From: Alphaproteobacteria bacterium
GTDB lineage: Bacteria > Pseudomonadota > Alphaproteobacteria > RF32 > CAG-239
DNA: 64,000 bases
Assembly (NCBI GenBank): GCA_045659785.1
Contig: JAZRCM010000002.1
Coordinates: 1,954 to 65,953 of the forward strand
Direction of reading: 5' to 3'
The notes beneath the pieces are model-generated. The model did no database searches. It saw only the letters and a program-made list of their open reading frames with translations, and was not told where the DNA came from. Below, piece by piece: positions 8,062 through 16,598 of the stretch. The position numbers and the translations under genes were made by a program. The stretch's first letter is position 1. Each line of letters opens with the position of its first letter.

Positions 8062-8138
8062 GCGCTCCTAGCTCAGCTGGATAGAGCAACAGCCTTCTAA
8101 GCTGTGGGTCAGAGGTTCGAATCCTCTGGAGCGCGCCA
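8062..8138 (+). tRNA. tRNA-Arg (anticodon TCT).
   Basis: Manual fold. Acceptor GCGCTCC pairs with GGAGCGC, then discriminator G and CCA. Anticodon stem ACAGC/GCTGT with loop CTTCTAA. T-loop TTCGAAT. Confidence 0.85.
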
Positions 8139-8364: not shown

Positions 8365-9183
8365 TTAGATAATATCTCTCACGCTTTTTTGTCCGTTACC
8401 TGCCTGATTCATATTGAAAAAGGCATTGATGGTGATGTCATCGTATCGGAGCTGATACAAACCACCCTTCTCTATCATTTGACGTTTTTTGTTGAGCCAA
8501 TAATAGTTACCGAAGTTTTTGGTCTTGTAAAACTGCTCAGGGCGAAGGTCGAGAATGTTCTCAGCATTTAAGATGCCCATATAAGCTGCTCCTTGTACCC
8601 AATGTCTCTTGAGCAATCCGTTAGCACGTTTTCCGGCAGAACGACGATAACGTGTCATACAATTAACACAATATTCATCGCTTTCTCCGTCGTTGACAGC
8701 CTCCAAAAATTTGCTCGGAGCCTGAACATATCGCCCATCAAGGCTGTAACCGGTAACGTTTTCTCCGCCTACATTGTACATAAATAACGCACAGCCGATA
8801 ATCTGTTCATCGCTCAACTTGCGTTTGTCGAAGTGTTTGAAGAACGGTACAAGGCGGTTTTCAATATGGTAAATACACCATTCTTTACCTACCTTCTTGC
8901 TGACAATGTCCTTCTTAGTTACATAGTCACCATTAGGCTTAACAGTAACACCATACCAAGATGTCCATCGAGCTCCGCAGTGGTATGGTTTACCCTGACC
9001 TTTGTCGCCTTCAATGAGAGCGATAAAGGTAAAGATGTCCTCACTGAGTTCGGTTGCTCGAGCAACGTTGTACTCTGCCGCGTTCTTACTTCTTCTTGAA
9101 CCGTTTCCGCCACAAGTGAAACAAAGGGTCATAATGACCGCAAAAATTGCCAATATGGCAATAATCTGAGATTTTTTCTTCAT
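8365..9183 (-). CDS. Exported GH24 (phage-type) lysozyme-like protein, lipoprotein-like, with a C-terminal extension of about 90 aa.
   Basis: Signal peptide with Cys. IALIEGDKGQGKPYHCGARWTSWYGVTV resembles the lysozyme E...Y...T.GYG motif. LSDEQIIGCALFMYNVGG and AGKRANGLLKRH resemble the GL.RRR.E tail. Confidence 0.5.
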   Translation of the reverse strand: MKKKSQIIAILAIFAVIMTLCFTCGGNGSRRSKNAAEYNVARATELSEDIFTFIALIEGDKGQGKPYHCGARWTSWYGVTVKPNGDYVTKKDIVSKKVGKEWCIYHIENRLVPFFKHFDKRKLSDEQIIGCALFMYNVGGENVTGYSLDGRYVQAPSKFLEAVNDGESDEYCVNCMTRYRRSAGKRANGLLKRHWVQGAAYMGILNAENILDLRPEQFYKTKNFGNYYWLNKKRQMIEKGGLYQLRYDDITINAFFNMNQAGNGQKSVRDII

Positions 9184-15581: not shown

Positions 15582-15673
15582 TTTTTTGCATTTTTTTCAA
15601 AATCTTACAAAAAAGTTGAAAAAAACTGTTGCAAAATATATTTTTTGTTGCTAATAGTATTGCGTTATCCGAA

Positions 15674-15750
15674 CGGGACTTAGCTCAGCCTGGTAGAGCG
15701 CTTGCTTTGGGAGCAAGATGTCGTAGGTTCGAATCCTATAGTCCCGACCA
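15674..15750 (+). tRNA. tRNA-Pro (anticodon TGG).
   Basis: Manual fold. Acceptor CGGGACT pairs with AGTCCCG, then A and CCA. Anticodon stem CTTGC/GCAAG with loop TTTGGGA. T-loop TTCGAAT. Confidence 0.85.
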
Positions 15751-15757
15751 AACATAA

Positions 15758-15790
15758 AAACCTTACCCTTGTGGTGAGGTTTTTTTGTTT
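15758..15790 (+). terminator. Terminator after tRNA-Pro.
   Basis: Hairpin ACCTTACCCTTGTGGTGAGGT followed by T7. Confidence 0.65.
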
Positions 15791-15895
15791 GAATGGCTGG
15801 CTCAGGGTTCGAACCTACAAAAGTAGGTTTGAAAACAAGCGGTAGGCAGACGGGAGTATGCCGGTGCGAAGCAACCGTGCAGTTTCGACGAAGTC

Positions 15896-15915
15896 AATCC
15901 TATAGTCCCGACCAG
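15896..15915 (+). repeat. Partial direct duplicate of the tRNA-Pro 3' end (19/20 nt AATCCTATAGTCCCGACCA). It is followed by its own terminator hairpin at 15924-15952.
   Basis: 15896-15915 matches 15731-15750 with one mismatch. The downstream region repeats the tRNA-end, terminator, palindrome unit with divergence. Confidence 0.75.
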
Positions 15916-16016
15916 ATACAAAAAAAAGCCGCCTTTATGGTGGCTTTTTTGTGTCTGAATTAGGGAGTTAGGATTTGAACCTACGGAAGTAGGTTCGACT
16001 ACCAATTTTTATCACC

Positions 16017-16598
16017 TTATTCCTTCGGAATATAGAATTTATTTTCGTTTTTCAGTTTATTATAGTGTTCTATATCTCTATATTTGAACACTTTTGCAGG
16101 ATTGCCTCCTGCTATGGCATAAGCCGGTATCTCTCCGTGAACAACGGCACCACCTTGTATTATTGCGCCCTCGCCTATTTTTGTTCCGGGTAACAATGTT
16201 ACTCTTGATCCCATCCAAACACAATCGCCGATTATGACATCCTTTTTGATAACATCTTTTCCATAAGGGATTGTATCGCTCTCATAATTATGATTTTGTG
16301 TTAAAACCAATATATCTTGCCCACCGATAACATAATTTCCGGTAACAAACTTACCGCTTCCCATAACTCTAATTCCGTTAAAAGCATTATAATCACCGAT
16401 ATATGTAGATTTACTGAATTTCGATTTTCCGCCGATACGCAATCTTTTTCCTACTTTTTTTGCTTTCATACGAACATTGATTATATCAAGATTATAAAAC
16501 GGACTACACAAAAACACGCAATCCAAAAAACTTCTGACTTTTTTTCGTAATTTTGAAAAAGGTATCCAAAAAGTTAGTAAGCGAACAACTATTTTCAT
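16017..16598 (-). CDS. Hexapeptide-repeat (left-handed beta-helix) acyltransferase, likely a sugar O-acetyltransferase.
   Basis: GDCVWMGSRVTLLPGTKIGEGAIIQGGAVVHGEIPAYAIAGGNPAKV is a hexapeptide-repeat segment. N-terminal hydrophobic stretch. Confidence 0.7.
   Translation of the reverse strand: MKIVVRLLTFWIPFSKLRKKVRSFLDCVFLCSPFYNLDIINVRMKAKKVGKRLRIGGKSKFSKSTYIGDYNAFNGIRVMGSGKFVTGNYVIGGQDILVLTQNHNYESDTIPYGKDVIKKDVIIGDCVWMGSRVTLLPGTKIGEGAIIQGGAVVHGEIPAYAIAGGNPAKVFKYRDIEHYNKLKNENKFYIPKE

What the first reader, a model, noticed from the sequence alone, without database searches (positions are those of the whole stretch)
15674..16016. tRNA-Pro followed by degenerate direct and inverted copies of its own 3' end, a tRNA-Pro integration hotspot scar
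Seen in sequence: the last 19 nt of tRNA-Pro (AATCCTATAGTCCCGACCA) recur at 15896-15915. Each copy is followed by a terminator hairpin (15758-15790 and 15924-15952). Each is then followed by a palindrome built from the tRNA T-arm sequence GTAGGTTCGAA: GGTTCGAACCTACAAAAGTAGGTTTGAA at 15805-15833 and GATTTGAACCTACGGAAGTAGGTTCGAC at 15971-15999. Together these form a duplicated unit of about 165 bp. Between the copies lies a short GC-rich stretch at 15846-15895 with no ORF. Established knowledge: tRNA 3' ends are the attachment sites of integrase-mobilised islands, and tandem att-like repeats are what remains after serial integration and excision. Inference: tRNA-Pro here is, or was, an active integration site. 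The GC-rich spacer could be a small RNA or an element remnant.
Basis: partly seen in the sequence, partly recalled or inferred. Interest (0 to 1): 0.55.

Follow-up and report, generated by a model that had tools for sequence, protein, structure and literature searches.

The report
tRNA-Pro integration hotspot with mini-element
The repeats behind this tRNA-Pro gene mark a real integration hotspot, and the 164-bp piece between them belongs to a previously uncatalogued family of tiny, gene-less, structured elements that sit behind tRNA genes in uncultured gut Alphaproteobacteria.

Summary
tRNA-Pro(UGG) lies at 15674-15750. Its last 19 nt recur exactly at 15896-15914. Each copy is followed by a terminator hairpin and a T-arm palindrome.

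The hotspot reading is supported by related genomes. In conspecific contigs, identity to the window stops exactly at the tRNA's CCA and a different element end follows. In a sister-species MAG the same end, carrying a truncated integrase-like start, follows the second 19-mer. Related species carry a large-serine-recombinase island at the same CCA.

The 164-bp unit is more than a random scar. Homologous units of 164-203 bp follow tRNA-Pro in several genera. Each has a terminator, an inverted T-arm copy, a direct T-arm half, a GC-rich core and the tRNA 3' end. The core's hairpins keep pairing through compensatory changes, and no Rfam family matches. A homologous core follows tRNA-Arg, with arms rewritten to match tRNA-Arg.

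Best reading: a non-autonomous, CIME-like mini-element whose terminal copy of the tRNA end acts as a second attachment site. A host structured RNA is the main rival. The enzyme and the mobile form are unknown.

The parts
15674..15750 (+). tRNA-Pro(UGG) gene with encoded CCA. It is the primary attachment target.
   Evidence: ARAGORN. Rfam RF00005, 69.3 bits.
15732..15750 (+). Repeat copy 1 (b): the tRNA 3' end from mid T-loop to CCA.
   Evidence: Exact 19-mer, 2 copies, 0 expected. Homology of conspecific contigs L001/L003 ends at 15751.
15749..15791 (.). Terminator hairpin 1. It is element-borne and follows the regenerated tRNA end.
   Evidence: Terminator scan 15756-15784 plus T-run. Inverted repeat I2.
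15797..15818 (+). Inverted copy of the tRNA-Pro T-arm. Its outer, acceptor-side part is degenerate.
   Evidence: 15804-15818 is 93% complementary to 15723-15737 (I5). Comparison with the tRNA 3' half.
15808..15833 (+). Palindrome 1: the inverted T-arm half, a 4-nt loop, then the direct T-arm 5' half GTAGGTTTGA.
   Evidence: I10. Helix 1 of model R1, which keeps pairing in 17 relatives.
15833..15895 (+). GC-rich core (G). Hairpin H1 is 15845-15848/15859-15862 with loop GACGGGAGTA. H2 is 15865-15867/15871-15873. The enclosing helix is 15840-15843/15874-15877. The core lies exactly after the TT(C/T)GA of the T-loop copy.
   Evidence: GC 0.58. R1 match 15805-15882, 68.2 bits. Covariation.
15896..15914 (+). 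Repeat copy 2 (b): the displaced or duplicated tRNA 3' end, usable as a secondary attachment site.
   Evidence: In L012 an integrase-bearing element end follows this copy directly.
15913..15957 (.). Terminator hairpin 2, probably the native tRNA-Pro terminator.
   Evidence: Inverted repeats I4 and I7. Near-identical terminator directly after tRNA-Pro in L044 of another species.
15969..16004 (+). Truncated second unit. It holds an inverted T-arm copy (15969-15985), palindrome 2 (15974-15998) and the first 6 nt of a G core (CTACCA, 15999-16004).
   Evidence: I3 is 94% complementary to 15722-15738. R1 match 15971-16030, 32.1 bits. Homology of the alternative haplotype (L004, L005, L007, L008, L011) starts at 15995.
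15616..15673 (+). tRNA-Pro promoter region (inferred).
   Evidence: Promoter-like site 15616-15644. This stretch is nearly invariant between the window and L012 while sequence further upstream diverges.

Best explanation
tRNA-Pro(UGG) is an integration hotspot in this clade of low-GC gut Alphaproteobacteria.

In the window it is occupied by one complete and one truncated copy of a gene-less modular element. The complete unit (15751-15914) has five parts:
- its own terminator for the tRNA;
- an inverted copy of the tRNA T-arm;
- a direct copy of the T-arm 5' half;
- a GC-rich core of three small hairpins, placed exactly after the TTCGA of that T-loop copy;
- the last 19 nt of the tRNA.

Shown:
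- the anatomy above;
- membership of a conserved family found behind tRNA-Pro in several genera;
- a homologous core behind tRNA-Arg, with arms rewritten to match tRNA-Arg;
- occupancy of the site that differs between strains and species;
- direct placement of an integrase-like element end after either the tRNA's own CCA or the second 19-mer.

Inferred:
- The unit is a non-autonomous integrative element of attP size. It is CIME-like, keeping both att-type repeats and no genes.
- It entered at the tRNA 3' end and regenerated that end.
- It now offers a second attachment site, at which further elements stack (tandem accretion).
- It spreads by hitch-hiking with integrase-bearing elements.
- The conserved folded core and tRNA-matched arms suggest that a single-stranded (DNA or RNA) form of the element matters for its propagation. 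The enzyme is not identified.
For: Site variability
- Homology of conspecific contigs stops at 15751, then a different terminator and element end follow.
- L012 reads tRNA, unit, second 19-mer, the same element end, then ATG MALKYNHLERRNHTYYFRYWIP, truncated after 31 codons.
- A large-serine-recombinase island starts at the CCA in L056, L057 and L059. The same island end occurs in L037 and L015.
- In another species, strains differ: tRNA-term-IR-pal in L044/L046 against tRNA-term-IR-pal-G-19mer-term-IR-pal in L043/45/47. The same contrast holds for L061 against L032.

Native flank after the second repeat
- The window's terminator 2 resembles the L044 terminator.

Family
- An exact 19-mer scan of metagenomes gave 22 loci. 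Many have the same architecture, with unit lengths of 164-203 nt.
- Model R1 finds 18 full cores in 13 loci.
- Rfam finds nothing but tRNAs.

Other content between the same repeats
- L021 and L033 carry a 213-214-nt filler that R1 does not match.

tRNA-matched arms
- L027 has a tRNA-Arg array with a 174-nt unit repeated twice, four copies of ATCCTCTCGAGATCGCCA, and a 17-nt inverted T-arm copy that is 94% complementary.
- L034 carries a third arm set.

Spread or exchange rather than slow decay
- tRNA + unit + second repeat are 241/241 identical between the window and L012. The flanks are 86.6% and 89.4% identical.
- Conspecific L002 carries SNPs in the H1 loop and in repeat 2.

Core folding
- 95.4% of cells are paired and 8 of 19 pairs changed on both sides. 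0 of 500 shuffles reach this. Slid controls pair at 17-42%.
- G.U cells outnumber A.C cells 17 to 7 on the tRNA strand.

Literature
- Tandem accretion at the attR copy of a tRNA end and CIMEs are described in PMC5704250.
- T-stem-region attP sites are the commonest class in Islander (PMC4383910).
Against: - No integrase or any other gene lies between the two repeats in the window. No recombinase lies within several kb.
- No full-length parent element carrying this core was found. Viral-contig scans gave nothing or chance hits.
- A 164-bp circle is very small for excision by a tyrosine integrase.
- Presence/absence polymorphisms (L043 vs L044, L032 vs L061) can equally be deletions between the roughly 113-nt repeats rather than insertions.
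- The core is a clean insertion after TTCGA, with no duplicated overlap region. A tyrosine-integrase junction would not look like this.
- Hairpin covariation is not needed for a double-stranded att arm.
- Some units sit away from any tRNA-Pro or behind a different partial repeat (L018, L020, L034). Simple integration at a matching 19-mer does not explain these.
Confidence: 0.5

Rival explanations
1. The unit is a host gene for a structured non-coding RNA of about 120 nt (roughly 15797-15914, tRNA strand). Its 3' end copies the acceptor/T-stem end of tRNA-Pro, perhaps so that tRNA enzymes process or protect it. Integrases use that copy only incidentally.
For: - Three hairpins are maintained by compensatory changes in 17 distinct sequences.
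- The G.U excess lies on the tRNA strand.
- The region is a GC-rich island in AT-rich DNA.
- It is followed by its own terminator.
- It sits between housekeeping genes, with no island, in L016, L028 and L035 (rlmE - tRNA-Pro - unit - argS).
- It is 100% conserved between two species.
Against: - No promoter-like site lies between terminator 1 and the core, and a terminator stands upstream of it.
- The window's core folds no better than shuffles (z = +0.18).
- The stems are only 3-6 bp.
- The unit is dispensable within species (L044 vs L043, L061 vs L032).
- It is often truncated at different points (L017, L025, L042, L022).
- Within-species SNPs hit the conserved H1 loop and the 3' mimic.
- The arms change with the neighbouring tRNA. 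That suits a targeting or insertion logic better than a single RNA function.
- No Rfam family matches.
Confidence: 0.2
2. The element is mobilised as a folded single strand, like integron attC sites or CTX-phage attP, or like an IS200/IS605-type or rolling-circle element. In the fold, the inverted T-arm copy pairs with the split direct copy to mimic the duplex tRNA T-arm. The GC-rich core sits at the exchange point.
For: - The inverted copy is the continuous complement of the T-arm half plus the start of the 19-mer. The core sits exactly at TTCGA| in three different arm sets, with no target duplication.
- The region 15723-15999 folds as single-stranded DNA at -67 kcal/mol, z = -9.5.
- Hairpin covariation and strand-asymmetric G.T pairs are expected for a folded strand.
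- Units with different arms are concatenated in L034.
Against: - No HUH transposase, TnpB or integron integrase gene was seen in any locus (gene tables).
- The attC core motifs RYYYAAC/GTTRRRY are absent.
- Hairpins H1 and H3 are not alike, whereas IS200/IS605 ends are.
- The strong fold energy comes mainly from the terminators and the tRNA-derived repeats.
Confidence: 0.15
3. Plain local tandem duplication of the tRNA 3' flank, by slippage or unequal crossing-over, with no site-specific recombination. The GC-rich stretch would be filler.
For: - Arrays have the form X-G-X with identical X copies (L032). L027 has an exact 174-nt tandem duplicate.
- Homologous recombination between repeats can create and remove copies.
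Against: - The two window units are only about 72% identical.
- The core is conserved across genera and recurs behind a different tRNA with matching arms.
- Unrelated elements abut the same repeat boundary at single-base precision.
Confidence: 0.07

Closest known systems
Genomic islands in tRNA genes marked by a displaced 3' tDNA fragment (Williams 2002; Islander, PMC4383910)
   Same: An intact tRNA is followed by a co-oriented copy of its 3' end that starts in the T-loop. Occupancy of the site varies. An integrase-like gene start lies next to the repeat in relatives.
   Different: In the window only 145 bp and no gene lie between the tRNA and the fragment. The Islander definition requires an integrase per island.
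CIMEs (cis-mobilizable elements) and tandem accretion at attR (Pavlovic 2004 and Bellanger 2011, as reviewed in PMC5704250)
   Same: The element kept both att-type repeats and lost its recombination and transfer genes. A second element is integrated at the distal repeat (L012).
   Different: Known CIMEs are kilobases of decayed ICE or IME. This one is 164-203 bp and conserved across genera. It has a folded core and inverted plus direct T-arm copies. No parent ICE or IME is known, and mobility is not shown.
Tycheposon arrays and scattered partial tRNAs in Prochlorococcus islands (bioRxiv 10.1101/2020.12.28.424599)
   Same: Repeated integrations at one tRNA push older elements outward and leave partial tRNAs and degraded remnants.
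   Different: Those remnants are not reported as a conserved structured module with tRNA-matched inverted arms.
Folded single-stranded attachment sites (integron attC; CTX-phage attP) - from general knowledge, not tested here by homology
   Same: Imperfect palindromes are conserved in structure more than in sequence. A folded strand could mimic the duplex target.
   Different: There are no attC core motifs, no IntI or Xer context, and the content between repeats is itself a homologous family.
IS200/IS605-derived miniature elements (PATEs) - from general knowledge
   Same: Short and gene-less, with subterminal hairpins. Inserted 3' of a fixed pentanucleotide (TTCGA) without target duplication.
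   Different: The end hairpins are unlike each other. No TnpA or TnpB is nearby. The element is always embedded in tRNA-derived arms.

Membership tests
tDNA integration site (Islander principle) | Intact tRNA gene plus a co-oriented fragment identical to its 3' end | tested here: met
   19/19 identity, same strand, 164 nt apart.
tDNA integration site (Islander principle) | Integrase gene between the tDNA and the fragment | tested here: not met
   Only 145 bp lie between them, holding only mechanical ORFs of 56 and 67 aa. An integrase-like start is seen only in relatives, after the repeat.
tDNA integration site (Islander principle) | Site occupied differently in related genomes, with breakpoints at the repeat boundary | tested here: met
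CIME | [quoted passage not shown] | tested here: met
   Two exact 19-mers flank a gene-less 145 bp.
CIME | Derived by decay from an ICE or IME | tested here: inconclusive
   No parent with this core was found in 78 loci or in viral contigs.
CIME | Excises or transfers together with an element accreted at its att site | not testable with these tools
   Only the static arrangement unit-repeat-integrase remnant is seen in L012. The 241/241 identity across species is compatible with co-transfer.
Known structured RNA family (Rfam 15) | Match to a covariance model at gathering score | tested here: not met
   E-value mode gives only terminator-like noise.
Structured RNA in general | Base pairs kept by compensatory change | tested here: met
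   Caveats: 17 related sequences, an alignment fitted to the model, and short stems.
Structured RNA in general | Own promoter and a defined transcript | tested here: inconclusive
   No sigma-70-like site between terminator 1 and the core. No expression data.
Two-piece (permuted) alphaproteobacterial tmRNA | Match to RF01849/RF04321 or an ARAGORN tmRNA call | tested here: not met
   A genuine alpha_tmRNA lies elsewhere in L031.
Integron attC / CALIN | RYYYAAC ... GTTRRRY core sites and cassette ORFs | tested here: not met
   Read from sequence. The outer ends are AATCC / GGRTT. No intI in the gene tables.
IS200/IS605 miniature element | Similar subterminal hairpins at both ends, with TnpA or TnpB in the genome neighbourhood | tested here: not met
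   H1 and H3 differ. No such Pfam families in any locus table.
Hammerhead ribozyme | CUGAUGA ... GAAA ... UH core around three stems | tested here: not met
   CTGATGAG occurs in only some copies, as part of hairpin H2. L027 and L018 lack it. The Rfam Hammerhead_II match is 14.8 bits against a threshold of 37.

The most novel reading that the evidence does not exclude
A previously undescribed class of miniature, protein-less elements colonises the 3' side of tRNA genes. A conserved folded GC-rich core is inserted at a fixed T-loop position (after TTCGA) of a partial tRNA copy. It is accompanied by an inverted copy of the same T-arm. All tRNA-derived arms are rewritten to match whichever tRNA is targeted (Pro, Arg and at least one more). 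The element would propagate as a folded single strand, or with the help of an unknown recombinase, and it plants portable copies of tRNA attachment sites around the genome.
Probability: 0.3. Interest if true: 0.8.

Novelty: new variant of a known kind. Interest (0 to 1): 0.55.

Why it matters
tRNA genes are the classic landing pads for islands and prophages, and partial tRNA copies are normally treated as passive scars. Here the material between two such copies is a conserved, structured, gene-less module. It recurs across genera and retargets between tRNAs with matching arms.

If it is a non-autonomous integrative element, it would be an extreme lower size limit for such elements. It would also give a mechanism for multiplying attachment sites and for stacking islands in poorly known gut Alphaproteobacteria. 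If it is an RNA, it is a new tRNA-end-mimicking family.

Either way, it gives island-finding software a concrete pattern. That software currently needs an integrase for each tDNA fragment, so it would miss this.

Tried and rejected
- tmRNA or permuted tmRNA: rejected.
- Pseudo-tRNA: ARAGORN and Rfam call nothing at 15797-15914.
- Hammerhead: the CTGATGAG word is only part of a covarying hairpin in some copies.
- Acceptor-stem pairing between the outer part of the inverted copy and the second 19-mer: not maintained. It is degenerate in the window unit. Variant repeats in L027 and L018 show no compensation, and the Arg-type pairs only through GATC.
- H1 loop pairing with the acceptor strand: the loop drifts (GACGGGAGTA to GATAGAAATA) without support.
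- Phage or provirus parent: viral-contig scans for the 19-mer and the palindrome found nothing. The H1-core pattern gave 3 chance hits that match only 18-38 model positions.
- Full-length integrase behind the L012 remnant: the 31-aa start, padded with X to meet the length minimum, found only a 56-aa fragment on a 529-nt contig.
- The alternative haplotype beside the hexapeptide transferase gene (L004 and others) as the other end of a small island: extension via its vWA protein (L074, 17 kb) shows a large variable region. It holds an SNF2 helicase, a small resolvase and a polysaccharide-modification cluster. There is no tRNA and no unit within 10 kb, and even the transferase gene is missing. 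It remains unclear whether this is one large island or a rearrangement.
- Further RadC-anchored look-ups (P0013, P0011, P0016) hit lineages without tRNA-Pro next to radC.

Full report
**1. The observation**

ARAGORN and Rfam place tRNA-Pro(UGG) at 15674-15750. Its last 19 nt, AATCCTATAGTCCCGACCA, recur exactly at 15896-15914, 164 nt downstream. No match is expected by chance, even allowing three mismatches.

Each copy is followed by a hairpin and a T-run. The first (15756-15784) is called by the scan. The second (15918-15954) is seen as an inverted repeat.

A palindrome built from the T-arm word GTAGGTTCGA follows each hairpin, at 15808-15833 and 15974-15999. That word occurs five times in 64 kb, all at this locus.

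The two units are about 72% identical over about 100 nt. GC peaks at 0.58 in 15840-15899. The mechanical ORFs across the region are not preserved in relatives, whose units differ in length by non-multiples of three.

**2. Context**

The flanking genes are housekeeping: a 222-aa membrane protein, a hexapeptide transferase, radC, map, tspO and alaS. The nearest genome is a roe-deer colon MAG labelled Alphaproteobacteria. No recombinase gene lies near the tRNA in the window. The other two tRNAs in the window have no 3'-end repeats.

**3. The site is variable**

Contigs 96-98% identical to the window fall into three types.

- Type A equals the window. In L002 the second 19-mer and the H1 loop each carry one SNP.
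- Type C (L001, L003) loses homology at 15751, the base after the tRNA. It continues with another terminator and an element end.
- Type B (five contigs) loses homology at 15995, inside the second palindrome. It continues with a 180-aa ORF and a vWA gene.

In the sister-species MAG L012, tRNA + unit + second 19-mer are 241/241 identical to the window, while the flanks are 87-89% identical. Straight after the second 19-mer comes the type-C element end. It is followed by ATG MALKYNHLERRNHTYYFRYWIP..., which I read from general knowledge as an integrase-like N-terminus. It is cut off after 31 codons. So the same element end is found after the tRNA's own CCA in some genomes and after the second copy in another.

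In related species a DUF2924 + large-serine-recombinase island begins at the tRNA-Pro CCA. Its left end recurs in two further lineages (L037, L015). Several lineages also carry a decayed 5' half of tRNA-Pro with a GC-rich insert upstream of the intact gene.

The window's terminator 2 resembles the terminator that directly follows tRNA-Pro in the unoccupied relative L044. Insertion of the unit at the tRNA end predicts this.

**4. The unit belongs to a family**

A metagenome scan for the 19-mer returned 22 loci. Many show the same order of parts:

- tRNA-Pro;
- a terminator;
- an inverted T-arm copy (AGGRTTYGAACCTAC);
- a short loop;
- GTAGGTTCGA;
- a GC-rich core starting CTAC(C/A)AG;
- G(T/A)C;
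- the 19-mer;
- another terminator.

This is usually followed by a further inverted copy and palindrome that stop about 6 nt into a core.

A covariance model of the palindrome and the first two core hairpins finds 18 full cores in 13 loci, plus truncated copies. These include both window copies. Rfam has no match.

Strains of one species differ by the presence of core + repeat (L043 vs L044; L032 vs L061). Units are mosaic: L018 and L070 share loop, T-arm half, core and 19-mer but differ in terminator and inverted copy. A different filler, not matched by R1, lies between the same 19-mers in L021 and L033.

**5. The arms follow the tRNA**

In L027 two identical 174-nt units follow tRNA-Arg(UCU). 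Their core is homologous to the Pro-type core. The inverted copy, the direct T-arm half (AGAGGTTCGA) and the terminal repeat (ATCCTCTCGAGATCGCCA, four copies) are those of tRNA-Arg. L034 has a third arm set.

In all three sets the core begins right after the TTCGA of the T-loop copy. The tRNA sequence resumes after the core, with no duplicated overlap.

**6. Structure**

On the model alignment of 17 distinct cores, 95.4% of cells pair and 8 of 19 pairs have changes on both sides. No shuffle of 500 reaches these values, and slid controls pair at 17-42% (MAFFT-based version). H1 occurs as GGCA/TGCC, GGCG/CGCC, GCGA/TCGC and GCCG/CGGC.

G.U cells outnumber A.C cells 17 to 7 on the tRNA strand.

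Several points count against a strong RNA claim. The stems are short. The window core alone folds no better than shuffles (z = +0.18). No promoter-like site precedes it.

As a single strand, 15723-15999 folds into two long imperfect palindromes centred on the terminators (z = -9.5).

**7. Interpretation**

The hotspot reading is supported. The most economical account of the unit is a gene-less, attP-sized integrative element. It is CIME-like (PMC5704250). Its distal tRNA-end copy serves as a secondary attachment site for accretion. T-stem-region attachment sites are the commonest class in Islander (PMC4383910).

This account leaves several things unexplained:

- the hairpin covariation;
- the tRNA-matched inverted arm;
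- the clean T-loop placement of the core;
- units far from a matching tRNA (L018, L020, L034).

Two rivals therefore stay open: a host structured RNA, and an element handled as a folded single strand. The enzyme is unknown.

**8. Novelty**

Tandem partial tRNAs at hotspots are well known. A conserved, structured, 164-203-bp module with retargetable tRNA arms is not described in any library or paper I could reach. I rate it a new variant of a known kind. I give about 0.3 probability that it is a genuinely new class of element.

Noticed in passing
L027 2616-3240: tRNA-Arg(UCU) is followed by two identical 174-nt units with a core homologous to the tRNA-Pro unit but arms copied from tRNA-Arg. Two more copies of the tRNA-Arg 3' end follow. 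The last is followed by a terminator and flank with no inverted copy.
   Followed up: yes
L034 150-460 and 640-1760: A third arm set (GCTGTTCGA ... AGTCCAGTCA) surrounds a homologous core. An acyltransferase gene next to it is flanked by AGTCCAGTCAA(A) repeats, as if a one-gene island had integrated at that pseudo-tRNA end.
   Followed up: partly
L044 6650-6930; L038 6740-6948; L069 4740-4990: Upstream of the intact tRNA-Pro lies a decayed 5' half of the same tRNA that stops in the anticodon loop (GCTTGCTTTGGG|CTCGAGG). A terminator and about 200 nt of GC-rich sequence follow. This looks like a 5'-fragment (anticodon-loop) type of integration scar.
   Followed up: partly
L056/L057/L059 5932-10699; L037 7317-7420; L015 11385-11480: An island starting at the tRNA-Pro CCA encodes DUF2924 and a 568-aa large serine recombinase. 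The same island left end occurs in lineages whose tRNA-Pro T-arms differ.
   Followed up: partly
L053 and L055 5930-6480: In a common gut species with a different tRNA-Pro, GC-rich repeats flanked by a 37-nt or longer copy of the tRNA 3' part follow the gene in some strains but not in L058. The assemblies contain runs of N there.
   Followed up: no
L014 and L029 (whole loci): Dense arrays of 11-16 tRNA genes, of the kind seen in large phages, include a tRNA-Pro identical to the host gene through its whole length.
   Followed up: no
L043 7590-9940: Two serpin genes are inserted between the truncated unit and the epimerase gene. The insert is flanked by a 15-16-nt duplication (ATATTTTTTATTCTGC) and is absent in L044/L046 of the same species.
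   Followed up: partly
window 16017-16598 versus L074 11240-11260: The hexapeptide transferase gene next to the locus is itself variable. It is missing in a 17-kb contig that is 97.7% identical over radC-map-tspO. That contig instead carries a vWA gene, a polysaccharide-modification cluster, a small resolvase and an SNF2 helicase.
   Followed up: partly
L021 2978-3300; L033 849-1182: A different filler of 213-214 nt, not matched by model R1, lies between the same two 19-mers. It also starts with a terminator and an inverted T-loop copy (AGGATTCGAACC).
   Followed up: no
window 8365-9183 (-), next to tRNA-Arg 8062-8138: The 272-aa ORF beside tRNA-Arg has a weak phage-lysozyme Pfam hit in the precomputed table for L001. 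No tRNA-Arg 3'-end repeat exists in the window.
   Followed up: no
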